From IMG/VR virus record IMGVR_UViG_3300030060_004613, positions 5,315 to 69,314 of that record: 64,000 nucleotides of DNA, one strand, 5' to 3'. Below are positions 24,401 through 64,000 of this stretch, piece by piece. This DNA comes from a virus. The notes under the pieces are model-generated. The model saw only the letters and a program-made list of their open reading frames with translations, ran no database searches and was not told the origin of the DNA. Each line of letters starts with the position of its first letter. Position 1 is the first letter of the stretch. The position numbers and the translations under genes were made by a program.

Positions 24401-27400
24401 AGAACATCGTAGTTATCGTAGATGTCTTGGATTAGTTCGATGGCCATTCTCTCTCGTGGCGTCATCTTGTGGTTTTCTGAGAACGCAATGATGATGTCAT
24501 CTACATGTGCAGCAAACTGCTTGCGGTTCATTCCAGAACCACTCGTAAAGATGTTTTGGATTCCAGCAAGACGTCGATAGCTTTGGCTTGTAATAGGCTG
24601 GGATAGCGTCTTACGCAATCCATTGATGACATGCATGACCGCTGCTGCTTTCCTTCCATCTTTCAGAAGCTGCTGTGCAGTCTGTACCCATTTGGTCAAC
24701 TCATTCATCTGTCGCGTTCGGCGCTCAAACAACTTCTGAATGACAGGGCTCGTCTCTATTTTTTGTCCCTCTTTGGTGCGACCAGTAAGCGGAAGATCTG
24801 TGACGAATGCATCTCTCAACTTTCTGGACACGGCACCAAGAAACGGAGCAGCGTTGATAGGAGCCATCAATTCTTTAACTGCCGCATACCCAAGAGACTT
24901 GGGAACGTTCATCATCTCTTTGGTAGCGCCTGTGCCAACACCTACAACGTGGTCGCGGATCAATTCGTCTACCAACAGTCGATACTGCGAAACTGGAATC
25001 TGACTGAGGTCTGCACCTGGAGCCAACAGGTCTGCCAACGTTGAGCTTTGCAACATACTGGCCGTTTTTGGATCTGCTCCTAACGTCAACAAAAGATTGC
25101 GAAGCCTGCGCTGTTGCGGCTCCAGCAGATTGATGACCTCAATTTGAGTTACGCGGGCCTCACCAGTAGGCAGAACCTCTGTGACCTTCTCGACGTCTAC
25201 ATTGCCAAACTCATCAACTACCTCAACCTCAAGGTCAACTTTGTCGAATTGCTTGGCAAGCATGTTTGGATCTCCAAACACATTCCAAATGATTCGCTGC
25301 GCTTGTCCGAGATATTGAGCCAGTTGGCGTTTGGGAACGATAGAACGGGTAGAAAAGGAAACCCAGTTGTTGGTGTACTTCTTTCTGGATTTTTCGGTAA
25401 CGACGTAACCAACTGCCTTTTGAATAGCCTGGAACACATCCACGCTGGTATCTGCCTCTCCGATTTCAAGGTATGAGCGGATGCGTCCAGAATCCAAATC
25501 AATGCGACCGGCCTCTTTGGCTTCACCTTGTTTTCTGATTGACTCTGTTTCGAGAATGTCTTCTGGAACCCGTGTTACTTCAACCCGCTTAAATGCTGGA
25601 TCGGCGCTGACGTCAAACATTGCCTCCTTCTTGGCGTCGTTTAAGATACCAGTCCATTCATCAAAATACCGACGCAGACCCGGAGAAGTGTGATCAACTC
25701 GATGACGAAGCCGTCTCCACGTCACGGCAATCCTGTCTCGAATCGTTTCGAATGAACGCTCGACTACAGGGTCTTTAAAGTACCTGTCGTGCCAGTATTG
25801 TTGAAAAGCTTCCTTGGCCTCTACCATGCCCTTTGAAGTCAGTGCTTTAGTACCATCAGCAAGTTCTACATTGTCGAACCTTTCAGCCAGAGCACGCATC
25901 GCTGCTGGATAGTCGTCACCAAGAAGTTGGACGAGGCCCAGAGAGGCATCACCAAACAACGCATCCAAGTCTCCTTCCGCAAAGAACTTGGTCAGATCCG
26001 CACCAGAACCAAAGAATGTCGTAAGAAGAGGGTTTTCGAAATCTGCCCCCGACATGTACAACGCGCCTCGACTAAGCTGTGTCGGAAGCGGTTTTTCTTG
26101 GAACGGAGACTTACCAGTAAACCCTCCCTCTTTGAACGAATCGTAGAGCTTTTGAAACCCTGCTCCAAACAAACCAGCAGCGAGTCTGTTTTCTCTGGAC
26201 GAAATTGCCGCCTGCACCCTGGGGTCGGTAATGTCGGGGTAAACGTCCTCAAGTCTCTTAACCACGGCTTTCATGGCTGCTGGACGCACAGCAGGAAGCA
26301 TTGAGCTACCTGGATGCACAATGACGTGTGGGTCAAGGTAACCACGCCATTCATCCCAGACTTGATGCTGTCGAGTCGCAGCAGAACCCAAAAGGTCAGA
26401 TTGATCAGCGTTGTCCGTCAATATGTTGAGAGCCCTTTCATACTCTGGCGACATGACGTCCAATGAAGTAACGGCCTTGCTTTCAAAACCATCAATCGAT
26501 TTTTGAACTACAGGGTGCCCGACCCCGTATGTATCGATGGTGCTCTGGAACATCTTGTGGGCTCGAAGAGTCTTCTCAACCCTCTCAACGTTCTTTTTCT
26601 TGATGGCCTTTTCAGCCTCGGTTTTAGCGGGTTTACGTCGAATTTTGTCCAGAGCTTTTTGGACTCCCTCAACGTCAATTCGACGAGCAGATTCTGACGG
26701 AAACAAATCTGAAATCTCTTTGATTCCAGTAGGAAACAAAGGCAAGCTCTCTGGAGAGGTAACTTCAATACGAAGCTGATCTCTCCAGAACGTGTACGCA
26801 GGATTGTCTTTTGAAGGTGTGAGGAACTTCTCAAAGGTCAAGCTGGACCGCTTTACAATTTCGTCCTCAAAAATTTCTTTTGCACGCGCTTTGATTTTGT
26901 TTGCAGAAGGCACAAAGTCAGATTGACCCGACTCTCTAATCAATTGCATTTCTGCAATTTCTTTTAGATGATTTCTTGCGGCCTCAGACTTAATGTTCTT
27001 CCAATCAACAAACCACTGTTTTGCTTTGTCGAGGTACTTTGGATTTTTAAAAAGTTCCTCACCCATCAATCCAATCATGTGGATGTCAAGCGCTCCAATG
27101 TTAGCCATGAATGGATTTTGCCAGTACAAACCAAACATCGTAATCTTGGTAGCCATACCCGGAACGAGACTGGCAACACGATCAGAAAACACTCTCCAAT
27201 CTTCTTCGGGGAATCGCTCGAAGAATGAGTATTCGAGTTCTCCGTTAAGGACTCGATTGAAGTCGTCGAGCATTACCTCATACATCTGGAGCATAAGATC
27301 CATGTTTGCAGGGCTCGACAAAGAGACGTCATTGGTGAGATTAATGACGTTGTCGCTTCGGACTTTGGTTCTCAGAGACTGGTAGTTGAGATCTGCGGCC

Positions 27401-30400
27401 TGCATGTCAGCAATCGCTTGCTTCAACTCTCGTTTTTTATCACGCTTGGTTTTCGGGTCCTTGGTTGTTGGAATCTGTTTTTCAAGTTTGGCTATCAGAT
27501 TCTTTTTGGAGCCGTAGGTGCTAAGAGCGGATGACATAGCGCCTTCCATCTTTACGGCATTAAGAGGAGCCACATCGAGCATTTGCACGTCGATTAAGGG
27601 CGCACCAGGCAGAGACCAGTCTTGGATTCTGACCATAGGCGCAACATCTGTCTCGATGTCCAGCATCTTGTTGGTTTTTCCAAACCGATCTTTAAGTGTG
27701 CCAGTCCCGATATTGAGAGCAAACCCAAGAATGTGTGCTGCCTCCTCTCTGGAAAGAGCTTCTTTTTTGTTCTTGCGAGCACGCTTGTACTTCTCAACCA
27801 TTTGAGTAAGGTCTTTCATGCCTCTTGGTCTGGCTACTGCTGCAAAGACCTGATTGTTCATCAGGTTTGTATTCATCGACAGGAACGCAAAGATGTACTG
27901 AGAAGCAACATCCATGAGATGCGCCTCCATCTTTTGCCGCCACTCAATTGCCTTCTCTCCTCGTTGCAGCCTGTTGTTCTTAAAGAAGTCTTTATTGTTC
28001 GGACGAAGCTGCTCTACTCCGTAGCTCTTATGAAGTTTGCTGTACAAGTCTGTAAGCATCGCCCGATAAGCGTCTTTGTACTGCATCATGATTTGATCGA
28101 AGTTAGCAATCGAGCCGCTTTCTCCAAACAACATTGCACCGTTGTCTGACCACCATTTAGCAGCAGCATCTTCAACCAGAGTTTCGATAGGTCTCCGCGC
28201 AAGGTACTGCACATCTGCAAAACTAAACTCACCGGCAATACCACCAGGAACAAAAACCCTTTGACCAGCAACACCAGCAGCAAAATCTGTTGCTTTTAGC
28301 ATTGGATAAACCGAAGCGGTCACCTGACGACGTTCAATGGTCTTCTCGACAGAGGTGGACGGGAAGATGTACTCAACTTCAAACTCAACAGGAATTTCAA
28401 CGTTTTCAAGAGGAGATGCTTTACCCAACCTCTCAGAAATAAACTCAGCTTGATTTGGTGTAATTTCTCCAAAAGCAATTCGTTGACGCAAACCAGCTTC
28501 TGCTTCGGAATCAACTATCTTATGAGGAGATCCACCAGGAACCTCAGATTGTACTTCAAACTCTCCGACTAACTCTTCTGAGAGGTGTCCTGAGTCAACA
28601 ACATCACGGTCATTGACGATCGCCCTGACATCGGCTCCGAGTCGGTCGAGCGCTCCTGGGATGTCGAGGATTGAATTTGAGCCATTATACGCCGGTCCCT
28701 CGCTTCTTCGCTGAAATCGTGGTTCTCTGGTAGCGGGTTCAGACCCAGGGCCTGTCTCAGGGCGTTCGAAGAGCGGCGTCGAATCTCCTCCTCCGTCTCT
28801 GACTTGGTTTCTGCTTCGTTCAATCCAGTACTGGTAGGATCCTGGGTTTTCTGTTGCATCTGGACTCCTGCTGTTTGAGACAGCGTAAACAGACTCTTGC
28901 TCGAATCTAATCTTCACATCGCCAAGGTCTTTCTTTTTAGCGTACTCAGTTATATCATTGAGCACATCATCCACGATGTTAGCAAATGTCTTTACTGACG
29001 CTGCGTCATCAGGAATCCACTCTGGAACGTGGACCAATTCGATAACGCTGCTACCATCATCAAGTGTGTCAAGACGGATAGTAGCGCCAGTGTAGTTGTC
29101 GGCAATGCTTTTAAGGACAGTCCTTGCAACACCACTCTCAAAACCTGATGGGATAATAATCTGAGCAGTAGCTCCCCTGGATACTCCTTTGTCGTCAAAA
29201 GTAATTTGAGGGGCAAGAGGTTGGGTGGTATCGATTTCAACAGTTTGAACCCTTTCCCGAACCAACATTGCATCTTGATTGTATGCCTTAGAATACTCGG
29301 CAACACGACCAAGAATCACATCTCTTGGGCCATCCAGGGTAATGTAAAATCCAGCTTCAGGATCATAGTCAGCAAAAGCACCAAGGCTTGTTTGGAACTG
29401 TCCTTCTTCAGTCAAGTTGGTGACGCGAATCATTCCTTCGGGCAGGCCATCGTTTAAGGTTCGCTGAACATCACCAGCCAGAAGCGCAAACAACTCTTGG
29501 TTTACTGCCTCAAGCTGTCTTGTGTAGCGCGTCCGTGTGCCCAGCCGAGTAGCCTTGTCTCTTTTTACTCGAAGAGCATTTGATTGGTTCATAAGATTCT
29601 GAGCTTCGATAAACTCAGGACGCATACCAACGACTGCTACAGTCATCTGAACGCGATTCTCAATGGCCTCATTGACCTTCATCAACAAGCTGTTGTCTGC
29701 GGCAGCATCATCTGCTGTGCGGAAAAGAGGCGCTGCCTCATCGATGTAGTCATCGAATGTGTTGTCTACATACTGACCGTCGATGTCACCAAACTCTCTG
29801 GCAACAACGGTTGGTTTGCCCTGTTGTTCTAAGCGAACACCAATCATGCTGGATAATCGTGCGTTGACTTCTCTTCGAGAACCCATTGGCAAAGCTTCGC
29901 CATCAAACAGTCGCTCAACGAGATTTACTAAAACAGGATGAAAGTCTTCTCGCGAACGCACGCTGCGTCGAAACCAACTGTCGAAGAAGGATGAAAGACG
30001 CTCGACAAGATGATTGAACACTCTGAGAATCGAGTTGGAATCAGCGCGGTTGTTCAACACCTTAGGCAGTTGATGTGTGATTACAAACTCTGCAAAATTT
30101 TCTGCGAACCACTCGGCATATTGAACTTGAGAATATGGAACTTGGCCTCGAACATAAGCTGTGTCCCTATTAAGAAATTGTAGAAATTCATCTCTGTATG
30201 CCTGTGCAAGCAAAGCATTTTCGCTATCAGACAGGAACGACATTTGAATTGCATGGCCAAGCTCATGCAGGAAAGTGTAGGTCCTCGGGCCAATTCGTTT
30301 TGAATTACCAACGATTCTTTGCAGAGATCCATGGATTCGTGTTTGTGCTCGCAACCTATCGAGAGTGTCTGCCTCAGCAGGAAAATCAGCTTTTGCAATT

Positions 30401-33400
30401 TTTTCGGCTAATTCGAAGGCGGTAAACGGTTTACCAGTCGCAGGGTTTACAGCGTTGTTGAACAGCCTCATCGCCAACGCTCGCATAAGCTGGCCGCGTT
30501 GTGCGACCCCTTGATCGTAGTGGAGAGCAATCATCTCATCAACGCTTGCGTTTACAAACTCTGGGACGGTCTCTGATGCTTTAAGAAGACCTACCTCGTT
30601 TTTATAAGCAAACAGTTGAATTGCAGAGACGACTCGATCTGGGCCACCACCAAGAATACTGGTTGCTCCGAGTGCATCTGGATTTTGAGCGAACAACTCT
30701 ACTTCTTCTACAAACCGAATGTCTCTTAAGACGCGGTCGGGTAGAGCAAGGACCATCGCCTGAAGCACCGCTGCCATTTCATCATCAAGAAACTCTTCCG
30801 CACGAAGCTTTCTGAGGGTTTCAAGAATCTGTGTTTTACCAGTCTCTGGAAGAGGCGAGCGTCTTGATTCAGGAATTTGAGAACGAAGTAGGCGTTCTTG
30901 GGTCAAGTTTAAAAGTGAGTCTATTTCATCAGAAATATCGTTAATGACGTCAAGCGGAAGATTAGAACGCAACACCCGTTCTCGAAAATCGTCACTTAAG
31001 CTCTCTATTTTCCTCATAAGATCGTCGAAGGTGCTACCACCTGAGTCTATTAAGTCGAGTGCTTTTCTAAAGAATTGATCTAAAGCTTTAGGTGCATTTG
31101 ACACGCCGCTGGTACGGTCACGGATCAACATTCCAAGAACAAAATCAAAGGTCTCTTCTGCGTTTAAAACCTTAAGTTGATCATCAAGACTCAAGCCTTC
31201 TGCTAAAGGTCTAAGAAACTCTTCTAAGGTGGCTTTTACTTCAGGAGTTAAGTCAGCCTCCGCTATTTTCGTTTCGAAACCTCTCATGAACAAAGGTTCT
31301 GGCTCAGGCAGATCAATCTTATCAAAATCAATCGCGTCCAAAACCTGCTGAATGTAGATGCGTGTAGACTCAAGACCCTCGTCCAGCCCTTTGGTTCGGG
31401 CCAGTGCCACTGCCGTAGCCTCAATCATCGCCATGTATGTGTCGATGGGGCTGATACCACGAATCTTCTTAATGTTTGCAGCAGCGCCAGTGTCTTTAGA
31501 AACCTGCTCTACAGCGTCCCTGAGTCTTTGATACTCATCAAGGTCACGCACGCTTCTCGTGTAGTCGTCAGAACCTTCGAGTCGCTCTGTGGCTTTCTCC
31601 ATAAAATCCGCAGTTCGGATTCGAGAAGTATCTCTTAAAGCATTCATCGCGTCTCGTGGATCGATACCGGCTGCCCGAAGCACCTCCAACACATCTTCTT
31701 GTGTGTTTTTACCAAGACCTTCGAAAGGATTTCGCCCTTGGAGGATGTTGTTTTGAACCATCTCCTCTGCAAAATGTCTGGTGATGTCGTGAATACCACC
31801 AATCTTTTCTTTGGTGCCCACGCCAAACATCGTGCCTGGAGCAGGCCCTTCTCGACCCAAACGCTCCGAAAGGCTTCGGAGACCAACTCTCCAGCCTAAA
31901 GAACCTTCGGCTTCCTTAAGGGTTCGACGAGCCTGCTTGACACCTCTGCTGTCGAAAAGACGCCTAAGAGGTGTTCCTTCAAAAAACTCAATCGTAGATG
32001 CTGAGACAATGCCCCTACGTGTAGAGGATTCAGCAAACGCTGCTCGATCAGCCGTTTGTACAGCTTGTGCAACTTCGAGAGCTTCTTGCGCGTCTTCTGG
32101 AGTAATCACCTTGGTTGGGATTTTAGATTGCAAGCTACCCAAGCCAAACACACCTTCGGGTAAGTACGCGGCTCGAATCAAATCAATCGATGGAGCACCA
32201 GGCAGATCCTGCATGAGTCTTTTGAAACGAGATGTTCCCACTACAGGCCGACTGAGTGAGGTGAGCGCCCATTGTTCACCAGGCACGAGGACGTCCAGAC
32301 CAAGACCATACGCGGTCATCCTGTCGTACATCTCGCTGTCTTTGGAGTAGCCCATGCCAATAGCGGCTTCGCCAAGACGACCAAAAAAGCCTGCGGAATC
32401 TGGTTCATCCAATCCAGAAAACCAATCTCCAAGACCGCCACGATCACTTGCGCGTCCGTTCCACTCCCACCGACCAAACTGCTCACCCATGGCCATCACG
32501 GGGTCAAAAAACAGGTCCATCGCTGTTTCAGCAATGGGGTCAAACAAAATGGTGCTACCGATTCTTAATGTAGATCCAGGGATGGACTCAGAAGTATTTA
32601 CAATTGTCCCATCTACTGTGGTGTTTGTCGTAAGATTACCCAATCCTTCAAGGGTAAAGTACCCAATGGTGCGATCTTCTGCGCCAAACAATCGCTCTCT
32701 TTCCGAACGAACCCGCTCAACGCTGTCTTTGATTCCATCATAACCACCTACGCTTGTGATAATTTTAGTGGCAATCGTAGTAGGCAGTTGAGCCAATGGA
32801 ATCGAGTTTAATCGACTTTCCAAGGCAGCCATTTTGGAGGAATCATCAAGATACTCCTCCAGAGACATACCAAGCTCCTGGGCTCGGTCTTGAAAATCAT
32901 CGATGATTCTCGCGTATTGACGAGAAACGTAAGGGTTTCCATCGGAGTCAACTCTGGATCTTGAACCCTGAGGTAGCGCCTTAAAGTCTTGGCTCTCAAT
33001 GATTTCACTTTTGAACCCATCGAACCTGGGAACATCAATAAAGAACTTGCTGGTGTGGAGTTTGTTTCTGCTCTGCCGGAAGAACAAGTTGTACAGCACA
33101 GCCCTGCGCTCCTCCTCCGTCTCGGCAATCAACTCCTCGTTGTCAAAGAATCCCTTGAAGTCACCATAAGCTCCGCCGCCCCAAAGTCCCTGAAGGGTGT
33201 CACTCATGTTAGGAGCAATGTCTACAAACGGAAGACCAAACAACCCCGCGTCATCTACTTTTTGAGCAATACCAACGGCTGTTTGCAATGTTGCCTGGGC
33301 GCTGGCCCTTGCGCCTGTTCCAAAGCTTCCAGTGAGATCGTAGTCGTGAGACTCAACTCCAGGCAAATAGGAAATACCTTCTGCTGCGACCTCAAAGATT

Positions 33401-34797
33401 GGACTTGCAACTTGCGCGAAATCACCAAACCCGGTGTTTCTCATATTGCTCATTCGGGTGAACTGAGCAGACTCTCCATACTCCATTTTGTGGCGATCAC
33501 GGAGGCTTTGATCGGGAAACAAGTCGTTAGGAATGCTTTGCAGTACGACGTTTAGTCGGCGTGTGGCCTCGTCAAATCGTGCCTGGTTCCCTCGGGCTTG
33601 CTCACGCAACTCTGCCAAACCCAGAGCAGAAGACACTTGTTGAGTAACCTGATCGTTTCTTGGAAAGGTTTGTGTCTGTGTCTTAGGGTTAGGAGTAAGC
33701 CCAACACTTTTCAAAAAATTGTGCTTGCTCCCACGGGCAATCCAAGAACTCCTAAAATCTTCGAGAGCGCCTGTTGGAATTTCATCTAACCACTGTTTAC
33801 GATTGTTCGCGTAAACCTGAAAGTAATCAATGAAGTCTTGATCAGCAGTAGTCCTCAGATTGGTGAGGTCTTCTAAAGCATCTCTATACGTTTCGATCTC
33901 TTGGTCCGAAGCAGTTCCAAGTCGTTCTCTCGCCTCAATGCTTTCATACCAAGGTCTGGTTTTGCCAGTATCTGGGTCTTCGACATCATCAAACTTTTCA
34001 GCGTCTGGATGCTCTGCGTAAATAGGATTCTGGGTAAACTCGTTCGTTTGATTGGCCCACCATCGCTTTCCACGATTCTGACCAGAGTAGTTCTCTGTGT
34101 AATCCTCGCTCCAGAAATTTATAGCACCAACGCCAAATCCGACGACACCACGGAGTGCGCTTCCCACAGCACTCTCTGAAACGAGATCTTTGTAGGTAGC
34201 AGTAAACCCAGGCTCTGCTGCACGCTCAAGTGCCTCCCACTTCTTCGAGAACGCAAACCCCCCGTCCTCTTCTGTAGGACCCTCTGCGGATCCCTCGTGT
34301 CGAGACACAGTGCCCTGTTGAGCCTGACCCAAAGCTTCGAACTCCTCAAGGCTGGGGTCCTCCAGCATCAAGGCGAACTTGGTATTCTGAATTGCATTCA
34401 ACTCAAGTCTGTCTTCGTAATCTGCCGCTGGGTCAAATCCACCGGGGTAGTAGTAATCTTCACGTCGAGTCAGACCACGAAGCAGTTTTCGAAACGAGGT
34501 GTCCTCGTCAAGATTTTCAGCAGCCCATGCCTCTGTTGCTTTTTGATGGATGTCTTCGTCCACCTGAATCTTTTCAAGAAGCTCATTGTACTGAACAACA
34601 AACTCATCGTCTGATAGGTTGGGCTGTGTCTCTTCGAGGTATTCACGAGCGGCCTGTAGTGCCTGTTCTTGGAGAGCCTCAAGCTCGGCTGGATCATAGT
34701 CAAATGATTTGGGTGCGGAGTATTGCCCAAGACCCTCATCCGCCTCATCATCTAAACTGCGCTCTGCGCCTCGAACAACACCAGTCGGGGAAGCCAT
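21439..34797 (-). CDS. giant internal virion / ejection polyvalent protein (4452 aa)
   Basis: Position after the ejection genes; HELGH zincin motif; C-terminal ARRALFDY...FIFYSFQRKN typical of large ejection proteins. Confidence 0.85.
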   Translation of the reverse strand: MASPTGVVRGAERSLDDEADEGLGQYSAPKSFDYDPAELEALQEQALQAAREYLEETQPNLSDDEFVVQYNELLEKIQVDEDIHQKATEAWAAENLDEDTSFRKLLRGLTRREDYYYPGGFDPAADYEDRLELNAIQNTKFALMLEDPSLEEFEALGQAQQGTVSRHEGSAEGPTEEDGGFAFSKKWEALERAAEPGFTATYKDLVSESAVGSALRGVVGFGVGAINFWSEDYTENYSGQNRGKRWWANQTNEFTQNPIYAEHPDAEKFDDVEDPDTGKTRPWYESIEARERLGTASDQEIETYRDALEDLTNLRTTADQDFIDYFQVYANNRKQWLDEIPTGALEDFRSSWIARGSKHNFLKSVGLTPNPKTQTQTFPRNDQVTQQVSSALGLAELREQARGNQARFDEATRRLNVVLQSIPNDLFPDQSLRDRHKMEYGESAQFTRMSNMRNTGFGDFAQVASPIFEVAAEGISYLPGVESHDYDLTGSFGTGARASAQATLQTAVGIAQKVDDAGLFGLPFVDIAPNMSDTLQGLWGGGAYGDFKGFFDNEELIAETEEERRAVLYNLFFRQSRNKLHTSKFFIDVPRFDGFKSEIIESQDFKALPQGSRSRVDSDGNPYVSRQYARIIDDFQDRAQELGMSLEEYLDDSSKMAALESRLNSIPLAQLPTTIATKIITSVGGYDGIKDSVERVRSERERLFGAEDRTIGYFTLEGLGNLTTNTTVDGTIVNTSESIPGSTLRIGSTILFDPIAETAMDLFFDPVMAMGEQFGRWEWNGRASDRGGLGDWFSGLDEPDSAGFFGRLGEAAIGMGYSKDSEMYDRMTAYGLGLDVLVPGEQWALTSLSRPVVGTSRFKRLMQDLPGAPSIDLIRAAYLPEGVFGLGSLQSKIPTKVITPEDAQEALEVAQAVQTADRAAFAESSTRRGIVSASTIEFFEGTPLRRLFDSRGVKQARRTLKEAEGSLGWRVGLRSLSERLGREGPAPGTMFGVGTKEKIGGIHDITRHFAEEMVQNNILQGRNPFEGLGKNTQEDVLEVLRAAGIDPRDAMNALRDTSRIRTADFMEKATERLEGSDDYTRSVRDLDEYQRLRDAVEQVSKDTGAAANIKKIRGISPIDTYMAMIEATAVALARTKGLDEGLESTRIYIQQVLDAIDFDKIDLPEPEPLFMRGFETKIAEADLTPEVKATLEEFLRPLAEGLSLDDQLKVLNAEETFDFVLGMLIRDRTSGVSNAPKALDQFFRKALDLIDSGGSTFDDLMRKIESLSDDFRERVLRSNLPLDVINDISDEIDSLLNLTQERLLRSQIPESRRSPLPETGKTQILETLRKLRAEEFLDDEMAAVLQAMVLALPDRVLRDIRFVEEVELFAQNPDALGATSILGGGPDRVVSAIQLFAYKNEVGLLKASETVPEFVNASVDEMIALHYDQGVAQRGQLMRALAMRLFNNAVNPATGKPFTAFELAEKIAKADFPAEADTLDRLRAQTRIHGSLQRIVGNSKRIGPRTYTFLHELGHAIQMSFLSDSENALLAQAYRDEFLQFLNRDTAYVRGQVPYSQVQYAEWFAENFAEFVITHQLPKVLNNRADSNSILRVFNHLVERLSSFFDSWFRRSVRSREDFHPVLVNLVERLFDGEALPMGSRREVNARLSSMIGVRLEQQGKPTVVAREFGDIDGQYVDNTFDDYIDEAAPLFRTADDAAADNSLLMKVNEAIENRVQMTVAVVGMRPEFIEAQNLMNQSNALRVKRDKATRLGTRTRYTRQLEAVNQELFALLAGDVQRTLNDGLPEGMIRVTNLTEEGQFQTSLGAFADYDPEAGFYITLDGPRDVILGRVAEYSKAYNQDAMLVRERVQTVEIDTTQPLAPQITFDDKGVSRGATAQIIIPSGFESGVARTVLKSIADNYTGATIRLDTLDDGSSVIELVHVPEWIPDDAASVKTFANIVDDVLNDITEYAKKKDLGDVKIRFEQESVYAVSNSRSPDATENPGSYQYWIERSRNQVRDGGGDSTPLFERPETGPGSEPATREPRFQRRSEGPAYNGSNSILDIPGALDRLGADVRAIVNDRDVVDSGHLSEELVGEFEVQSEVPGGSPHKIVDSEAEAGLRQRIAFGEITPNQAEFISERLGKASPLENVEIPVEFEVEYIFPSTSVEKTIERRQVTASVYPMLKATDFAAGVAGQRVFVPGGIAGEFSFADVQYLARRPIETLVEDAAAKWWSDNGAMLFGESGSIANFDQIMMQYKDAYRAMLTDLYSKLHKSYGVEQLRPNNKDFFKNNRLQRGEKAIEWRQKMEAHLMDVASQYIFAFLSMNTNLMNNQVFAAVARPRGMKDLTQMVEKYKRARKNKKEALSREEAAHILGFALNIGTGTLKDRFGKTNKMLDIETDVAPMVRIQDWSLPGAPLIDVQMLDVAPLNAVKMEGAMSSALSTYGSKKNLIAKLEKQIPTTKDPKTKRDKKRELKQAIADMQAADLNYQSLRTKVRSDNVINLTNDVSLSSPANMDLMLQMYEVMLDDFNRVLNGELEYSFFERFPEEDWRVFSDRVASLVPGMATKITMFGLYWQNPFMANIGALDIHMIGLMGEELFKNPKYLDKAKQWFVDWKNIKSEAARNHLKEIAEMQLIRESGQSDFVPSANKIKARAKEIFEDEIVKRSSLTFEKFLTPSKDNPAYTFWRDQLRIEVTSPESLPLFPTGIKEISDLFPSESARRIDVEGVQKALDKIRRKPAKTEAEKAIKKKNVERVEKTLRAHKMFQSTIDTYGVGHPVVQKSIDGFESKAVTSLDVMSPEYERALNILTDNADQSDLLGSAATRQHQVWDEWRGYLDPHVIVHPGSSMLPAVRPAAMKAVVKRLEDVYPDITDPRVQAAISSRENRLAAGLFGAGFQKLYDSFKEGGFTGKSPFQEKPLPTQLSRGALYMSGADFENPLLTTFFGSGADLTKFFAEGDLDALFGDASLGLVQLLGDDYPAAMRALAERFDNVELADGTKALTSKGMVEAKEAFQQYWHDRYFKDPVVERSFETIRDRIAVTWRRLRHRVDHTSPGLRRYFDEWTGILNDAKKEAMFDVSADPAFKRVEVTRVPEDILETESIRKQGEAKEAGRIDLDSGRIRSYLEIGEADTSVDVFQAIQKAVGYVVTEKSRKKYTNNWVSFSTRSIVPKRQLAQYLGQAQRIIWNVFGDPNMLAKQFDKVDLEVEVVDEFGNVDVEKVTEVLPTGEARVTQIEVINLLEPQQRRLRNLLLTLGADPKTASMLQSSTLADLLAPGADLSQIPVSQYRLLVDELIRDHVVGVGTGATKEMMNVPKSLGYAAVKELMAPINAAPFLGAVSRKLRDAFVTDLPLTGRTKEGQKIETSPVIQKLFERRTRQMNELTKWVQTAQQLLKDGRKAAAVMHVINGLRKTLSQPITSQSYRRLAGIQNIFTSGSGMNRKQFAAHVDDIIIAFSENHKMTPRERMAIELIQDIYDNYDVLEQAQKRAIAEAYEVIEEGIDQRVHLANQTTLKLFAAFGGSPEQAVKLGREIENPLVDKTFAIRFYDLFYKGEWEQMLVELAGEGLAVGTASVRPGKFSLPHAALEAILRLRADHIYQSLLDDMSRYGMKTGIDEIAPADIRGAAERRQFVERVKMYIDEELNFGGVRITLDQYGRPTGRMRANLASPKRGAYGELIQGKSGESAPYSAAAQKRSRERGTFQYQVLEDAPGLKSGRVIHDLEAFQMAMQLIEEWGLKLGSDGKDFELVRFLDGSERLVPPFFKEEIEAQIDRLAGEASGRMGAGLMAKRTRFSVPEEFGLPRATAKELAGATTQKAVDFLFNSYTVGYRLMKMGVTSGLLLPNLAYYTANFIGAQFQVYMTIGAKGYFTTTFGPNALLSLELAASVFGGQPKNMRWNKVRPLVAPDGTVYTKRQLISMIEEFNITGSFLAAETATSLAEDLKRNEPSYWRTMTEEGPYYSRPGSPLESDVVAVTAEGVTAAARGAASLAYKPIAAAKFYHNQLINFASFIDNYYRVAVFLDGVEKGLSTTDAAGVARRALFDYTDLTEFERKTMRTVFIFYSFQRKNMDLFYDTLLTNPSRIFAQFRLARGLNQHFLDGDSTLIESEFSADRLGLAFLRNGIDHMVQANRVNAPVLPAAEALKAHFDFFAIISALTPGLAETEQTSERAIKTLARLNPWIQSFLGAAFEKDFFRGRDLGPKRIPTSFVQYDLLTTGGMILEMVGYEVRHLREYEPQEFPGQTHVYEASNAVNYFLLRSSFHGVFPITPLRDSVIPGVNLGPIDRSLPGMLLRMDPFEASRQGFSTLGMPFELGIFGRSMDTMSRMVRGQYLIPQLLQMEYDSYTQKVEAGKRESLGYYDPDAPGSYKTMIDRITAAGFVLNDDGDIMFASPDGVPVRGERGRLGVDEGFLGLLFNIQTIPTPQAAALRLFFNEKRRLEDVINILSARVDPEDLDVSLRTGVVETTDD

Positions 34798-59921: not shown

Positions 59922-60572
59922 ATGCCAACCGCTAAGAAACCAGCCAAGAAACCAGCCGCTAAACCAAAAGCTAAAGCCAAAGCACCCGCAAAGGCCAAAG
60001 CAAAGGCTCCTGCTAAGTCAAAGGCTAAAGCCGCTCCAAAGAAAGCGGAGAAGTCTCCAGCTTGGAAAGCAATTCACTCGTCAGAGAATGACACTTGGCG
60101 CACGCCAAAGCCTCTGTTCGACCGTCTCGACCGTGAGTTCGGCTTCGGACTCGATGCTGCTGCTCTCAAGCACACTGCTCTCGTCGAGAAATACTTCGGT
60201 CCAGATCATAGCGATGCGTCACGACAAGACGCTCTTTCGGTCGATTGGGACGCTGATGTCGTCTATTGCAATCCTCCTTATGGTCGCAAAGTCGGTGACT
60301 GGGTCAAGAAAGGTTGGCAAGAGTCACTCAAGGGCAAAACGGTTGTCATGCTTGTCATGGCTTGCACCGATACCATTTGGTGGCACGATTGGGCTTGGCG
60401 TGCCGATCAAATCAGATTGATGAAGGGTCGTGTGCCTTTCCGTCGTGAAGATGGGTCGAAAGCATCAAGCGCTCCCAAAGGTTCTGCAATCCTGGTGTTC
60501 AGCCCTAAGTATGCAAAGAAGGGCAAGCAGTACATCTCTTGGATCTTCGATCGATACGATGACGTGGATTAG
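59922..60572 (+). CDS. phage N6-adenine DNA methyltransferase with Lys/Ala-rich N-terminal tail
   Basis: DTWRTP, FGLDAAA, YCNPPYG, TDTIWWHD, KGRVPF. Confidence 0.9.
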   Translation: MPTAKKPAKKPAAKPKAKAKAPAKAKAKAPAKSKAKAAPKKAEKSPAWKAIHSSENDTWRTPKPLFDRLDREFGFGLDAAALKHTALVEKYFGPDHSDASRQDALSVDWDADVVYCNPPYGRKVGDWVKKGWQESLKGKTVVMLVMACTDTIWWHDWAWRADQIRLMKGRVPFRREDGSKASSAPKGSAILVFSPKYAKKGKQYISWIFDRYDDVD

Positions 60573-60741
60573 TTTCGACGTGTCTGCATGTGGAATAGAA
60601 GGTTGCACTCGGTCGGCTCATGTCGTCATTGAAATCAATGGCAAATGGATTGCCGTGTGTGCCTTCCACAATGCACCTGAGCACTGGGAACTCGATGATG
60701 ACTTCGATGTCGATACTGGCAACATCGATGAGGAAGAATGA
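60559..60741 (+). CDS. small zinc-finger protein
   Basis: CGIEGC...VCAFH; acidic tail. Confidence 0.55.
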   Translation: MTWISFDVSACGIEGCTRSAHVVIEINGKWIAVCAFHNAPEHWELDDDFDVDTGNIDEEE

Positions 60742-60998
60742 GTTATTCTTTGAGCACTACTATGCGCTCGAAGCCTCAACTCAACATCTACACGTTCACA
60801 CTCACAATGAGTGTCGAATCGTCGTCTGTTGATGACGCATTTGCAACCGTGCTCGATGAACTCATTGAGTCACCAGAGAACGTGATTGACGATGTAACCT
60901 ATGAGGTTCGACCATCTCTGGTCGTCGTCAATGTAGACAAGCTTGGACTGAACCAAGACACAGAGGTTGTTTGGACCTCTGATAACGCCGAATCATAA
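60738..60998 (+). CDS. hypothetical protein
   Basis: ATGA coupling; GAGG RBS. Confidence 0.6.
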   Translation: MSYSLSTTMRSKPQLNIYTFTLTMSVESSSVDDAFATVLDELIESPENVIDDVTYEVRPSLVVVNVDKLGLNQDTEVVWTSDNAES

Positions 60999-61015
60999 CT
61001 ACAAAAGGAGATGTC

Positions 61016-61108
61016 ATGTACGGTGGATACGGAAAGAAAGGTGGAAAGAAAGCACCAGCTAAGAAGAAGATGACCTACTCTTCTGGAAAGAAAGGCAAGA
61101 AGCGATGA
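61016..61108 (+). CDS. 30-aa Lys/Gly-rich microprotein
   Basis: Manual translation MYGGYGKKGGKKAPAKKKMTYSSGKKGKKR; AAGGAG RBS; ATGA overlap with the next gene. Confidence 0.7.
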   Translation: MYGGYGKKGGKKAPAKKKMTYSSGKKGKKR

Positions 61109-61329
61109 GGGTAACTGAAGACGATGCTGTGCATTTAGGCTCATCCTTCTTCCTCAAAGAACGCGAAGACGGCACATTCGTTTTGTTGGACGAAGAAGAC
61201 GTGGTCTGTGAAGGTGAGAACATCGAAGATACGCTTGAAGCGTTTCACATGATGCTGGAACTGAAGCTGTGCTACGCAACGATGGCTTGGATGCAAGCTT
61301 GTCTTCCCAAAGAAGGACTCAGAGCATGA
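61105..61329 (+). CDS. small acidic hypothetical protein
   Basis: Coupled by ATGA overlaps on both sides. Confidence 0.6.
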   Translation: MRVTEDDAVHLGSSFFLKEREDGTFVLLDEEDVVCEGENIEDTLEAFHMMLELKLCYATMAWMQACLPKEGLRA

Positions 61330-61508
61330 AGTCCACAACAACAAACGTTGCAGCCACCACGCTGCAAAACCTGCAACAGCTTGACGAGAACGTCTTGTCC
61401 GACCTCCGTAGCAAGCTGGCATCTCTCGATGATTCGGATTTTGACCGGGTCATCGTAGAGTTGCGGGTCAAACAGGTCAGAGATGAAGAAACGCCCAAAG
61501 GTTCGTAA
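61326..61508 (+). CDS. hypothetical protein
   Basis: ATG at 61326; AAGGA RBS. Confidence 0.55.
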   Translation: MKSTTTNVAATTLQNLQQLDENVLSDLRSKLASLDDSDFDRVIVELRVKQVRDEETPKGS

Positions 61509-62358
61509 GTGGGCAAAGGAATTCTCTAACGAAAGGACACGTCATGATCGTCCGTACATCGATTGGGTTTGTGCGGACCATCATGATGTCATCCATGCTT
61601 TCTTCGATAGGCTTGAGGACAAGTCCAACAACAAAGACTTCGCATGGATGCTTGGTATGTGGCCTGACGCTAAGCTTGCTCGTCAGTTTGGGCTGACAGT
61701 CCATGATGTGGTCAAAGCAAGACGTATGATTGGCGCTCCTGCAATGACTACTGCCACAGAGCGCTATGTGGAGAAAATCGTAGGTCCTATGGTGCGACTC
61801 TTGGCCAGAGAAGGCGAAATGGACAAAGCCTACAATCTTCGTCGATGGGCTGTCGGCTTGAGACCAATACAGGCCAAACGCTGCCGTTGGCGTTCTGTAG
61901 GAACAGCATGGTGGCAGATCTCCGACAACGACCCAATGGATTACCGCGAATCTAAGCGTCTACAGGGCAAGAGTTGTGGTACTTGCCGATATTGGCGTGG
62001 CTTGGACTCTCTGATGGACAAAGAGAACAAGCTGCACACAGGTGCATGGTGCGTAAGCCGTGACAGCGTCAGGAACACGATTGGCCGTGATTGGCTGGTA
62101 AAGCATGGTGGAACAGTCGGTAGAATGGCTCATCCGTGGTTCACCAACTGTCCTGCATGGAAGCCTTTGGACTTTAAGCTGAGAAGGCGCACACACAAGC
62201 CTCGATTCAAAGGCGACAACTCTGTGAGATGGGTATCGACAGTGACACATGCTCACTACTCTCCACAACCACTTCCGCCGATGGACTTTGGCCTACAGAT
62301 AGTGAAGATGCCTGAGTGGCTTGCACTGATGGATGAGATGCGCCGTAACGAGTCATAG
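61483..62358 (+). CDS. hypothetical protein with HTH-like and Cys-rich motifs
   Basis: LGMWPDAKLARQFG; CGTCRYW...GAWC...CPAW. Confidence 0.65.
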   Translation: MKKRPKVRKWAKEFSNERTRHDRPYIDWVCADHHDVIHAFFDRLEDKSNNKDFAWMLGMWPDAKLARQFGLTVHDVVKARRMIGAPAMTTATERYVEKIVGPMVRLLAREGEMDKAYNLRRWAVGLRPIQAKRCRWRSVGTAWWQISDNDPMDYRESKRLQGKSCGTCRYWRGLDSLMDKENKLHTGAWCVSRDSVRNTIGRDWLVKHGGTVGRMAHPWFTNCPAWKPLDFKLRRRTHKPRFKGDNSVRWVSTVTHAHYSPQPLPPMDFGLQIVKMPEWLALMDEMRRNES

Positions 62359-62494
62359 TCTCTATATATCGTTGGAACCCCCCCTACCGGCCATCGCGCG
62401 AATCATCATTGGACCCCCCCCAGGGCCACCTCTCGCGAGCATCTCCAACCACCCCCCGTAGGGGGGTGCCCCGTCGCAGCCAATCCGGGTTCCG

Positions 62495-62905
62495 TCAGTC
62501 CAGCGTCACCCCCTCCTGCCGAGGGGCTACCCTGTTTCGCAGTCCAGCCACCAGGCGGCGACCAGCCCCGGCCAGCCGACCGGCCAGGGTTCGAACCGCA
62601 GCAGCAGCGGAGCGGGTAGCAGCGGCGACCAGGGCAACAGCCCCAGCAGTAGCAACAGCAACACCCCCACCGAGGGGGCCAGCAGCAGCAGTATCAATAG
62701 CCTCCACCAGGGGGGCCTCCACCTCGACCACCTCCACCTCAGTAGAGAGGGGGGTGGTCTGGGGAACGAACAAGACCTGACCAGCCACAGCACGACGGAG
62801 CGGGGCAGCCTTGGACCAGGCGACGAATCGTCCAGTCTTGGCACACCGAGCCCGCTGCCGAGAAGACCCGGCGTCGAGAGCAGCAAAGGCAAGAATCAAG
62901 TTCAT
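62495..62905 (-). CDS. GC-rich orphan ORF
   Basis: 136 aa; RARCAKTGRFV motif and hydrophobic Ala-rich segment; composition differs from the rest of the genome. Confidence 0.45.
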   Translation of the reverse strand: MNLILAFAALDAGSSRQRARCAKTGRFVAWSKAAPLRRAVAGQVLFVPQTTPLSTEVEVVEVEAPLVEAIDTAAAGPLGGGVAVATAGAVALVAAATRSAAAAVRTLAGRLAGAGRRLVAGLRNRVAPRQEGVTLD

Positions 62906-63131
62906 GACACCCTAATAACCAGTCCACAGTGTAGTGCAACAAAATACACCAACCAAAATGCTAAACGATGGACAGAGAGCCTGACCCCAAAAAAAAATAA
63001 AAAAGAATGCATTTTATTTTTTCAATGATTCTAAGGGTTTAGATGACCACCATGCTCGCAGTCTATCGATTAGACGGTGTATGACAGCCGGTTACTTACC
63101 CCTTGTCAGTCAGGGAACACCCCAACCGACA

Positions 63132-63144
63132 CGCTCTTTCACAT
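63132..63144 (+). promoter_or_regulatory. boxA-like antitermination site 1
   Basis: CGCTCTTTCACAT versus rrn boxA TGCTCTTTAACA. Confidence 0.6.
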
Positions 63145-63311
63145 CATCACATGAGTCTGACCCCAGCCGGTTCCCCACCTCCCCATGGAGGCGCAGGACA
63201 GGTAGCCTACCAGGCGGCACCCCTTCTTATAGGACAGTGCTTGGGAACAGACCCCAACCTGGGGGGCTCGCAAACACCGCGACGAACCAGGCCCCTACGG
63301 GGGGATGATGA

Positions 63312-63324
63312 CGATCTTTGACAT
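63312..63324 (+). promoter_or_regulatory. boxA-like antitermination site 2
   Basis: CGATCTTTGACAT, preceded by a CCCC-TACG-GGGG hairpin. Confidence 0.55.
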
Positions 63325-63818
63325 AACCCAATAGAAGCTGGACACGTCAAGCCGGATGCTGCTTTCGAGCAGGGAAGCCGGACTGAGTTAGGAGTGAAAG
63401 CCCAACCCCCTGGTCACCGAGTGACAGGGACCCCCTGAGAGGGGGGAGCAGGAGGGGCTGACGTTGAGCTTGCCAAGTAGCAAGGGGGAGGAGCCTGCAA
63501 GGGGACCCACCCGCCAAGGAACAGCAAGCAAGAGACCGATCCGAGAGGCGAGCGATCATGCCAAGACCCTCAAATAGCCTGGACGTGTAGCAGACTGAAG
63601 ACCCCCACGCCCCGATGACGGGCGGCCATCCCAAGTCCTAAGCGGTCACGGATGAGCCTTGCACCCTGAGGAACCGTGGGGGGGACCAATGAGGCAACCA
63701 ATCGGGCGTCCCCCTTCGGGGGGGCTGCTCGACTGGCCCGGTGAGTCCATCGACTGCGGTGGATTGACCCGGCCTGACAGCCGGAAACAACAGCAAACCC
63801 AACTACTTGGAGGCTTTT

Positions 63819-63995
63819 ATGCCTGCTTCAATCTCTCTTGCGGTCATCGATGGCCGTGTCTTTCTCATTGACGCCGACAACCACGTCGGTGTTCTCGGTG
63901 TGCCGAGCTTTGCAACTCACCACGCTGCTGAGATCTTCCTGAACTCTGAGGGGTTCGCGAACGACCCAGCAACAGACGAGTTCATCCGCAGCTAA
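63819..63995 (+). CDS. first early gene, hypothetical
   Basis: GGAGG RBS after a CAA-rich leader; 58 aa. Confidence 0.7.
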   Translation: MPASISLAVIDGRVFLIDADNHVGVLGVPSFATHHAAEIFLNSEGFANDPATDEFIRS

Positions 63996-64000
63996 CTCAC

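What the first reader, a model, noticed from the sequence alone, without database searches (positions are those of the whole stretch)
63082..63784. Large, densely structured non-coding RNA candidate heading the early operon
Seen: about 700 nt with no credible CDS, tiled by stems: CCCC-TACG-GGGG; CTGCT-TTCG-AGCAG (63359-72); a GAAA-capped stem; CCCTGGTCAC-CGA-GTGACAGGG; CCCCT-GAGA-GGGGG; CTTGC-N6-GCAAG; CCT-GCAA-GGG; CC-GAGA-GG; CGCCC-N7-GGGCG; TCGGGC..CCCCC-TTCG-GGGGG..GCTCGA (63702-32); TCCATCG-ACTG-CGGTGGA. A long-range helix ACACGTC (63342-48) / GACGTGT (63582-88) closes a ~250-nt multibranch domain. UNCG/GNRA loops and G-U pairs point to a + strand RNA. I could not match it to tmRNA, RNase P, group II intron or omega RNA hallmarks. 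Inference: a possibly new large phage RNA class (comparable in scale to GOLLD or ROOL), such as a ribozyme, scaffold, decoy or antiterminator.
Basis: partly seen in the sequence, partly recalled or inferred. Interest (0 to 1): 0.85.

Follow-up and report, generated by a model that had tools for sequence, protein, structure and literature searches.

The report
Structured phage leader RNA with boxA
A marine phage starts its early operon with a conserved, highly folded non-coding RNA of about 700 bases that matches no known RNA family and seems to borrow the ribosomal-RNA operon's boxA anti-termination signal.

Summary
The element is real. Window 63080-63776 (+) has stops in all six frames. It is about 60% G+C against about 50% for the genome, and it is conserved in 12 distinct sequences from uncultured marine phages.

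Covariation supports the fold:
- Domain B (63337-63776): 36 of 103 predicted pairs show compensatory changes, against 2-10 in slid controls.
- Domain A: 9 of 31 pairs, against 0-3 in slid controls.

G-U pairs and alignment-fold energies favour the + strand. Rfam 15 gives no match, here or in seven homologous loci. Three are contradicted by the homologs. The long-range helix is confirmed.

New here: the two most conserved blocks (63132-63144 and 63312-63324) fit the boxA consensus bound by NusB/S10. In relatives they are 14-16 nt identical to the boxA in 16S rRNA leaders of sampled Alphaproteobacteria. Each sits just ahead of a helix-closed domain, as in rrn operons.

Best reading: host RNA polymerase makes a Rho-resistant, untranslated structured RNA that runs on into the roughly 17-kb early operon. 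What the folded domains themselves do is unknown.

Transcription was not shown. The family is narrow, with about five clades.

The parts
62906..63079 (.). A+T-rich divergent intergenic region with sequence-conserved blocks (TTCAATGATT at 63021-63030; GCTCGCAGTCTATCGATTAG at 63054-63073). It is the presumed promoter region for the leader. The transcription start is not known.
   Evidence: Alignments show conserved sequence without covariation. The second block is duplicated in one clade (L001, L083, L080, L086). The only sigma-70-like hit lies at 62969-62998, so no convincing promoter was found.
63113..63122 (+). Small hairpin (GGG-AACA-CCC type) about 10 nt upstream of the first boxA-like block
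   Evidence: The G-C pairs are conserved in 10-11 of 11 sequences. Some homologs add an A-U pair (listing). Support is weak.
63132..63144 (+). boxA-like block 1 (CGCTCTTTCACAT)
   Evidence: ACGCTCTTT is invariant in 11 of 11 homologs and is the longest invariant run of domain A. It matches 9 of the 10 specified positions of GYTCTTTAANA (PMC5725501, passage). The 13-mer pattern has 2 matches in the window against 0.28 expected.
63142..63148 (+). 5' strand of the helix that closes domain A (CAUCAUC); it pairs with 63304-63310
   Evidence: A helix of 6-9 contiguous pairs links the bases just after block 1 to those just before block 2 in 11 of 11 homologs, in five sequence versions.
63149..63303 (+). 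Interior of domain A. Hairpins: 63174-63197; 63216-63241; 63258-63291 (with 63266-63283 nested inside); 63292-63303.
   Evidence: Nine of 31 pairs show compensatory changes, against 0-3 in slid controls.
63304..63310 (+). 3' strand of the helix that closes domain A (GAUGAUG)
63312..63324 (+). boxA-like block 2 (CGATCTTTGACAT)
   Evidence: G[AC]TCTTTGA[AC]AT is present in 11 of 11 homologs. In relatives it is identical over 14-16 nt to rrn-leader boxA of sampled Alphaproteobacteria. GAUCUUUGA equals the core of the B. subtilis consensus (PMC13753749, passage).
63325..63336 (+). Joint between block 2 and domain B. In 7 of 12 relatives a further structured module of about 130-190 nt is inserted here.
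63337..63595 (+). Domain B, first part: a multibranch fold closed by 63337-63351 paired with 63579-63595. Inner helices: 63352-55/63378-81; 63359-63/63368-72 (UUCG loop); 63391-96/63537-42; 63399-406/63452-59; 63431-36/63441-46 (GAGA loop); 63468-73/63524-29; 63485-96/63503-14; 63545-48/63568-71.
63602..63682 (+). Domain B, second part: closed by CCCCCAC/GUGGGGG, with inner helices 63624-27/63655-58 and 63635-38/63644-47
   Evidence: The three distal pairs of the inner helix are compensated in 4-5 of 12 sequences.
63702..63732 (+). Hairpin with a UUCG loop
63733..63776 (+). Long terminal hairpin of about 17 pairs, the best-supported helix. It is a possible RNase III-type processing site; that is inference only.
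   Evidence: Eight of 13 or 9 of 17 pairs show compensatory changes, with up to five pair types at one position.
63777..63821 (+). Unstructured A/C-rich linker, then Shine-Dalgarno GGAGG (63809-63813) and the ATG (63819) of the first early ORF (to 63995)
   Evidence: No terminator-like site lies between the RNA and the ORF.

Best explanation
The region encodes a phage-lineage-specific, modular, highly structured non-coding RNA. It is about 0.7 kb here and 0.72-0.89 kb in relatives. It forms the untranslated head of the early transcript and is laid out like a small rRNA operon.

Proposed order of events:
1. Host RNA polymerase starts in the A+T-rich region upstream (inferred).
2. It transcribes a C-rich, G-poor stretch that would otherwise invite Rho.
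3. It meets boxA-like block 1, then helix-closed domain A, then boxA-like block 2, then helix-closed domain B.
4. NusB/S10 bind the boxA blocks and, with NusA/NusG, turn the polymerase into a Rho-resistant antitermination complex (inferred from sequence).
5. That complex allows the long untranslated RNA to be finished and folded.
6. It then carries transcription into the roughly 17 kb of early and replication genes.

The folded domains probably persist as a stable RNA. Its own target is unknown: it could be a scaffold, a decoy or a ribozyme.

Shown: conservation, non-coding status, a covariation-supported fold on the + strand, and the boxA sequence matches. Inferred: transcription, Nus binding, Rho resistance and stability.
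For: Homologs:
- 12 distinct sequences. Three of 4 viral loci carry the element; the fourth, L003, ends before it.
- 11 of the 32 stretches from the one metagenome pattern scan are true homologs.
- Two of those are the same contigs as viral loci. One is identical to another over their overlap.

Conservation:
- The region is 78-84% identical in nucleotides to L001 and L004, while the neighbouring 291-aa ORF is 70-73%.

Fold:
- Domain B: 93.7% of 1227 cells are paired. 36 of 103 pairs are compensated, against 2-10 when partners are slid by 1-3 columns. 0 of 500 shuffles reach the observed value.
- Domain A: 9 of 31 pairs, against 0-3 in slid controls.
- A closing helix is present in 11 of 11 homologs, in five sequence versions.

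Strand:
- 84 G-U cells against 23 A-C cells.
- Alignment-fold energy is -105.2 forward against -82.7 for the reverse complement.

Non-coding.

boxA:
- Blocks 1 and 2 match 9 and 8 of the 10 specified positions of GYTCTTTAANA.
- The E. coli consensus UGCUCUUUAACA and the B. subtilis consensus AUGAUCUUUGAAA bracket the two forms. A small hairpin lies just upstream in B. subtilis.
- 8 of 20 sampled alphaproteobacterial 16S leaders carry G(C/T)TCTTTGA(C/A)A(T/A)T 150-231 nt before the 16S gene. 11 of 13 gammaproteobacterial leaders carry a boxA-like match; 8 of them are of the TTTAA type. No GCTCTTTGA-type match occurs on the antisense strand.
- The only similarity between the element and the 33 fetched rrn loci at a boxA position is the boxA itself, 13-16 nt at 100% identity.
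- rrn operons have one boxB-boxA-boxC set after the promoter and another before the 23S gene. boxA is necessary and sufficient for complex formation (PMC10250234, passage).

Rho-type composition:
- 63090-63197 is 37-44% C and 17-19% G.

No terminator lies before ORF1.
Against: - No transcription data. The two RNA-labelled runs that were laid do not cover the element, so the start, the end and stability are unknown.
- No credible promoter was found (reading).
- Block 1 has C at consensus position 8, where the published and sampled boxA forms have A or G.
- Loose boxA-like words are not rare: GHTCTTTNANA occurs 6 times in the window against 2.5 expected.
- boxA needs only about 12 nt, so it does not explain why about 650 nt of conserved structure exist.
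- The family is narrow. It has about five clades whose terminases are 87-92% identical, so many 'compensated cells' are inherited rather than independent.
- The structure was predicted on the same alignment on which it was counted.
- 12 of the 20 alphaproteobacterial leaders showed no motif within 500 nt.
- The host is unknown.
- If early transcription is done by a virion polymerase, boxA would be irrelevant. The 4452-aa protein has no detectable family.
Confidence: 0.5

Rival explanations
1. The structured RNA is real, but the two invariant blocks are not Nus-factor sites. They are DNA-level signals, either phage-specific promoters or operator sites. In that case domains A and B would be transcribed as separate units starting just after each block.
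For: Each block sits immediately 5' of a structural module. The optional module is inserted right after block 2. The blocks are invariant while their surroundings vary. No upstream host-type promoter was found.
Against: The blocks occur nowhere else in the 69-kb genome in this form, so they are not a general phage promoter. They match boxA over 13-16 nt, including the flavour found in rrn leaders. The helix that closes domain A begins only 2-3 nt after block 1's core and ends right before block 2. That requires one transcript to span both.
Confidence: 0.15
2. It is only a cis-acting 5' untranslated region. The structure serves mRNA stability, processing (for example RNase III sites, as in T7 early RNA; recalled) or control of early-gene translation. 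No free RNA product has a role of its own.
For: There is no terminator between the element and ORF1. A long terminal hairpin lies 33 nt before the Shine-Dalgarno sequence. The element always sits at the head of the operon in the relatives.
Against: The size is 0.7-0.9 kb, with a multibranch architecture of more than 100 conserved pairs. Modules are swapped between relatives (L059 has domain A of one clade and domain B of another). The first ORF downstream differs between clades while the RNA is kept. This is far more than known leaders need. No riboswitch or leader family matches.
Confidence: 0.2
3. It is a DNA-level element, such as a replication origin, a packaging site or an ejection-stop signal, and the inverted repeats act in DNA.
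For: It lies at the boundary between gene blocks, next to an A+T-rich stretch.
Against: The supported helices pair partners up to 240 nt apart, nested in a multibranch fold. G-U pairs outnumber A-C pairs 84 to 23. The reverse strand folds worse. Double-stranded DNA would not select for these features.
Confidence: 0.03
4. It is a very divergent member of a known RNA family (RNase P, tmRNA, group I or II intron, GOLLD, ROOL, an omega-type guide RNA) that the models miss.
For: The size and the complex fold are in the range of such RNAs.
Against: There is no match even at E up to 10 on the element with permissive filters, and none at E up to 1 on seven homologous loci. No tRNA genes are nearby. 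No reverse transcriptase, TnpB/IscB or intron ORF was found among the 27 distinct neighbouring proteins scanned.
Confidence: 0.03
5. It has no function. It is a G+C-rich spacer whose apparent covariation comes from shared ancestry and from fitting the alignment.
For: There are only about five clades. The single-sequence z-score is unremarkable.
Against: Slid-partner controls keep relatedness and still give 2-10 against 36 compensated pairs. Several pairs show 3-5 pair types. The region is more conserved than the flanking ORF.
Confidence: 0.04

Closest known systems
rrn operon antitermination leader (boxB-boxA-boxC after the promoter and again before the 23S gene; rrnTAC with NusA/B/E/G, SuhB, S4)
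   Same: It has two boxA-type blocks. One is near the 5' end and one lies between two large structured domains, and each is preceded by a small hairpin. The structured domains are closed by helices that start right after a boxA, like the leader-trailer helix. The RNA is long and untranslated. In relatives the boxA is identical over 13-16 nt to alphaproteobacterial rrn leaders (PMC10250234 passage).
   Different: The cargo is not rRNA and has no similarity to it. The element sits in a phage and runs on into protein-coding early genes. No boxC was looked for. Nus binding is untested.
boxA ahead of other long untranslated or regulated transcripts (suhB leader; CRISPR operons are mentioned in PMC13753749)
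   Same: A boxA is used outside rRNA operons, where Rho would otherwise act (PMC5725501, abstract and passages; PMC13753749, passage).
   Different: Those cases have a single boxA and no large conserved fold.
Lambdoid nut sites and N-dependent antitermination
   Same: A phage early transcript carries boxA plus a hairpin to make host polymerase termination-resistant (PMC10250234 passage).
   Different: In nut the named order is boxA, boxB, boxC, and the phage N protein binds boxB. Here the hairpin comes first, as in rrn. No N-like protein was identified, and the leader is about ten times longer.
GOLLD and ROOL (large ornate RNAs, often phage-associated)
   Same: It is a large, G+C-rich, multi-domain fold in a phage genome. 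One part is variable and one part is conserved (the same split in GOLLD is recalled).
   Different: There is no model match, and no neighbouring tRNA genes. It sits as an operon leader. Multimer formation is unknown.
Candidate structured RNAs of IMG/VR (Fremin, Bhatt, Kyrpides 2023, PMC10690425)
   Same: That study used the same data source and the same kind of evidence, namely covariation in intergenic regions of viral contigs.
   Different: Those candidates are 29-151 nt long (section 2.1). At most, single hairpins of this element could be among them. The supplementary lists could not be opened, so this is unchecked.

Membership tests
Conserved structured non-coding RNA | Base pairs kept through compensatory changes more often than in controls | tested here: met
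   Domain B: 36 of 103 pairs against 2-10 in slid controls. Domain A: 9 of 31 against 0-3.
Conserved structured non-coding RNA | No conserved reading frame | tested here: met
   At least 3 stops in every frame of all 11 full-length homologs.
Conserved structured non-coding RNA | Transcribed | tested here: inconclusive
   One run search and one laying of 4 runs. The 2 RNA-labelled runs do not cover the element, and only contigs were available.
boxA (NusB/NusE-binding RNA element) | Match to the consensus sequence | tested here: met
   Block 1 matches 9 of 10 and block 2 matches 8 of 10 specified positions of GYTCTTTAANA; relatives' block 2 matches 9 of 10. Relatives are 13-16 nt identical to sampled rrn leader boxA.
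boxA (NusB/NusE-binding RNA element) | Single-stranded in the transcript | tested here: inconclusive
   The blocks are unpaired in the consensus folds, apart from 4-5 predicted pairs that show no covariation. The single-sequence minimum-energy fold pairs block 1.
boxA (NusB/NusE-binding RNA element) | Lies in the transcribed leader, downstream of a host promoter and upstream of untranslated RNA | tested here: inconclusive
   The position fits, but the promoter and the transcription start are not identified.
boxA (NusB/NusE-binding RNA element) | Binds NusB-S10 and confers resistance to Rho | not testable with these tools
   This needs binding and reporter assays.
GOLLD / ROOL / OLE / RNase P / tmRNA / group I and II introns / riboswitches (Rfam 15 models) | Covariance-model match | tested here: not met
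   0 matches at gathering score in the window and in the first 5.4 kb. Only two junk rows at E above 5 on 62850-64000. No row in the element at E up to 1 in 7 homologous loci.
GOLLD / ROOL | Frequent neighbourhood of tRNA genes (recalled) | tested here: not met
   0 tRNA genes in the whole 69-kb record.

The most novel reading that the evidence does not exclude
The phage carries a mimic of an rRNA operon. It hijacks the host's ribosomal antitermination and RNA-folding complex to make a new class of large ornate RNA in the first moments of infection. Domain B, about 440 nt with more than 100 conserved pairs, would then be a ribozyme, an RNA-only assembly or a protein scaffold. The paired boxA sites might also draw NusB/S10 away from host rRNA synthesis.
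Probability: 0.2. Interest if true: 0.9.

Novelty: new variant of a known kind. Interest (0 to 1): 0.7.

Why it matters
RNA folds this large and complex, without a known family, are rare. In the past they have turned out to be ribozymes, guide RNAs or RNA-only assemblies.

This one comes with a handle on its mechanism. Two boxA-type sites are arranged as in rRNA operons. That predicts that a phage can load the host's ribosomal antitermination complex without a protein like lambda N.

It also predicts what mutations in those sites should do, so the idea can be tested directly.

The boxA flavour also gives a sequence-based hint about the host of an uncultured marine phage lineage.

Tried and rejected
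Expression. One run search listed 20 runs, 2 of them labelled RNA, each with a 0.05 share of the sampled words. Four runs were laid. The RNA-labelled runs touch only a low-complexity stretch (62470-62754), a short A+T-rich piece, and 190 nt of the 291-aa ORF. This gives no verdict on expression of the element.

Single-sequence folding. The z-scores were not significant.

More homologs:
- The phages collection gave no DNA match.
- A terminase alignment scan of viral contigs found only the known contigs.
- A pattern scan of genome contigs gave 15 stretches.
- None of the roughly 200 loci outside the known homologs matched any of the 11 full-length homologs by BLAST at E up to 1e-3.
- The two new loci read as protein-coding DNA.

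Pseudoknots and long-range contacts between domains A and B. A column-pair scan and a full-length alignment fold gave nothing with covariation.

An N4-type virion RNA polymerase with hairpin promoters. The 4452-aa protein has no PDB, Pfam or PHROG match, so this was neither supported nor excluded.

Sigma-70 and ECF-type promoter readings of the conserved blocks. Spacings do not fit; this is my own reading.

The 10-nt direct repeat TGACAGCCGG at both ends of the element (63082-91 and 63775-84). It is not shared by the relatives, so it is not read as a target-site duplication.

Host identification. Terminase, helicase and capsid searches were uninformative.

Literature. Searches (listings only), one paper's abstract and section 2.1 and passages of another showed no description of such an element.

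Full report
**Setting.** The window is bases 5315-69314 of a 69,314-bp virus record without terminal repeats.
- Genes on the minus strand from about 12.0 to 59.8 kb include a large terminase, an internal virion protein and a 4452-aa ORF.
- Plus-strand genes run from the finding across the record's end to window 11.7 kb. They include small ORFs of no known family, an ArdC-like protein, a DnaB-type helicase and a YqaJ-type nuclease.
- The finding therefore sits at the head of a plus-strand early and replication block of about 17 kb. An A+T-rich stretch and a divergent minus-strand ORF (62495-62905) lie just before it.
- The element is about 60% G+C, against about 50% for the record.

**Is it a known RNA?** No.
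- Rfam 15 gives nothing at gathering score in the window or in the first 5.4 kb.
- At E up to 10 on 62850-64000 there are two rows, both to mammalian lncRNA fragments at E above 5.
- Seven homologous loci give no row inside the element at E up to 1.
- The record has no tRNA or tmRNA genes.

**Single-sequence folding.** It is unremarkable, with z-scores of -1.62 on the + strand and -0.75 on the - strand.

**Homologs.**
- The 291-aa protein just upstream found four viral contigs. Three of them carry the element and one ends before it.
- One metagenome scan, using a 22-base pattern from two conserved blocks, returned 32 stretches. Eleven are true homologs by BLAST.
- After removing two that are the same contigs as viral loci, and one identical to another over their overlap, 12 distinct sequences remain.
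- They fall into about five clades. By their record names and run labels all are marine.
- Further scans of viral contigs and of prokaryote genomes added nothing.
- The phages are close kin, with terminases 87-92% identical.
- The element is 78-84% identical in nucleotides to L001 and L004, while the neighbouring ORF is 70-73%.
- Every reading frame is closed at least three times in every homolog.

**Structure of domain B (63337-63776).**
- RNAalifold on the 12 sequences predicts 103 pairs. Thirty-six of them show compensatory changes.
- Counting on that structure gives 93.7% of 1227 cells paired.
- With partners slid by 1-3 columns, 35-47% of cells are paired and 2-10 pairs are compensated.
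- None of 500 column shuffles reaches the observed values.
- The fold has four parts: a multibranch part closed by 63337-63351/63579-63595, a second closed part (63602-63682), and two terminal hairpins.
- The terminal hairpin 63733-63776 has 8 of 13 pairs compensated, with up to five pair types at one position.

**Strand.** G-U cells outnumber A-C cells 84 to 23. The reverse-complement alignment folds worse, at -82.7 against -105.2 kcal/mol. This points to a + strand RNA. The predictor allows G-U pairs, so it is biased that way.

**Structure of domain A (about 63142-63310).** It has weaker but real support: 9 of 31 pairs are compensated, against 0-3 in slid controls.

**Optional module.** Seven of 12 relatives carry an extra module of about 130-190 nt between domains A and B. 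It comes in two types. The five sequences of one type give a plausible fold with 3 of 32 pairs compensated.

**Mosaic relatives.** One relative (L059) combines the domain A of one clade with the domain B of another.

The comparison confirms the long-range helix and about half of the hairpins. It contradicts three of them and does not support the 'GAAA-capped stem'; details are in the observation check.

**The two invariant blocks.**
- The longest invariant runs in domain A are ACGCTCTTT (63131-63139) and TCTTTGA (63315-63321).
- As the pattern CGMTCTTTSACAT they occur twice in the window, 180 nt apart, against 0.28 expected.
- They fit boxA, the RNA site of NusB/S10.
- The gammaproteobacterial consensus is GYTCTTTAANA (PMC5725501, passage). 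Blocks 1 and 2 match 9 and 8 of its 10 specified positions.
- The E. coli and B. subtilis rrn consensus sequences are UGCUCUUUAACA and AUGAUCUUUGAAA. In B. subtilis a small hairpin lies just upstream (PMC13753749, passages). Block 2 shares GAUCUUUGA with the latter.

**A direct test against rrn leaders.** I located 16S genes in samples of two classes. The classes were reached through genomes titled a Rhizobium MAG and Pseudomonas japonica. I read 500 nt upstream of each gene.
- Eight of 20 alphaproteobacterial leaders carry G(C/T)TCTTTGA(C/A)A(T/A)T, 150-231 nt before the 16S gene.
- Eleven of 13 gammaproteobacterial leaders carry a boxA-like match. Eight are of the TTTAA type and one is of the TTTGA type.
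- On the antisense strand there were 0 of 13 and 5 of 20 loose matches. None is of the GCTCTTTGA type.
- Block 2 of relatives is identical to these alphaproteobacterial boxA over 14-16 nt. At boxA positions this is the only similarity between the element and the 33 rrn loci. The other rows are 13-18 nt matches at E 0.2-1 elsewhere.

**Layout.**
- A small hairpin lies about 10 nt before each block. The second hairpin is missing in 2 of 11 homologs.
- Directly after block 1 begins a helix whose other strand ends directly before block 2. It has 6-9 contiguous pairs in 11 of 11 homologs, in five sequence versions. Cross-clade combinations pair less well for the window's and L004's versions, but not for all.
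- Block 2 is followed, after the optional module where present, by the closing helix of domain B.
- rrn operons have the same layout. One boxB-boxA-boxC set follows the promoter and another precedes the 23S gene. boxA is necessary and sufficient for complex formation. Tethering of boxA has been proposed to help the leader-trailer helix form (PMC10250234, passages).
- The first 100 nt around block 1 are 37-44% C and 17-19% G. From general knowledge of Rho, this is the kind of stretch on which it loads.
- No terminator-like site separates the element from the first ORF. That ORF has a GGAGG at 63809-63813 and its ATG at 63819.

**Reading.** I take the element to be the untranslated, structured head of the early transcript, made by host polymerase that the boxA sites convert to a Rho-resistant form. 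My estimates:
- About 0.9 that this is a real structured RNA.
- About 0.6 that the blocks work as boxA.
- About 0.5 for the combined model.

What the roughly 650 nt of fold do remains open.

**Host hint.** The boxA flavour hints at an alphaproteobacterial host. Other phyla were not sampled, and B. subtilis shares the TTTGA form, so the hint is weak.

**Limits.**
- Transcription was not shown.
- The promoter was not found.
- The family is small and closely related.
- The structure was counted on the alignment it was predicted from.
- R-scape was not available.
- Supplementary lists of a virome-wide screen, whose candidates are 29-151 nt long (PMC10690425, section 2.1), could not be checked.

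Noticed in passing
window 21439-34797 (-): An ORF of 4452 aa in the virion gene block has no match in PDB sequences or PHROGs. In Pfam it has only a sub-threshold row (18.5 bits against a cut-off of 27.4). Whether it contains a virion RNA polymerase is open.
   Followed up: partly
window 62409-62905: A G+C-rich (about 59%) stretch with CAG/CAA-type low complexity holds a 136-aa Ala-rich ORF on the minus strand. Its N-terminal part is conserved in some relatives and replaced in others. Contigs of an oligo-dT RNA run match only its low-complexity part at under 95% likeness, so they are probably unrelated.
   Followed up: partly
window 62449-62467: A hairpin CCCCCC-GTA-GGGGGG lies between the convergent 291-aa ORF (+) and the 136-aa ORF (-). 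It is a possible two-way terminator, though no T run follows it.
   Followed up: no
L001 7295-7420 (also L083, L080, L086): In one clade the conserved promoter-proximal block (of the type ..CGCAGTCTATCGA.TAG) is present twice, about 60 nt apart.
   Followed up: no
L059 668-1554; L075 724-1342: These are mosaic relatives. L059 has domain A and the inserted module of the L004 clade, but a domain B that is 89% identical to the window's. L075 is 91% identical to the window in domain B, yet it carries the inserted module that the window lacks.
   Followed up: partly
L103 1819-2829 (record bases 1819-2829, +): An early-block protein has ArdC N-terminal and zincin-like peptidase domains (Pfam E = 1.6e-18 and 1.1e-32). 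It looks like an anti-restriction type function.
   Followed up: no
window 63513-63705: In the best DNA run the assembly breaks into several short variant contigs exactly over the second part of domain B. They carry many substitutions and 1-2 nt indels, which points to strain-level diversity of the RNA within one sample.
   Followed up: no
window 60288-62421: A run labelled with a single organism (coded 'organism A') holds pieces of the phage at 99% likeness or more and at low depth. It holds nothing of the element itself.
   Followed up: no
window 63082-63091 and 63775-63784: A 10-nt direct repeat, TGACAGCCGG, brackets the element in this phage only. It is not shared by the relatives.
   Followed up: yes
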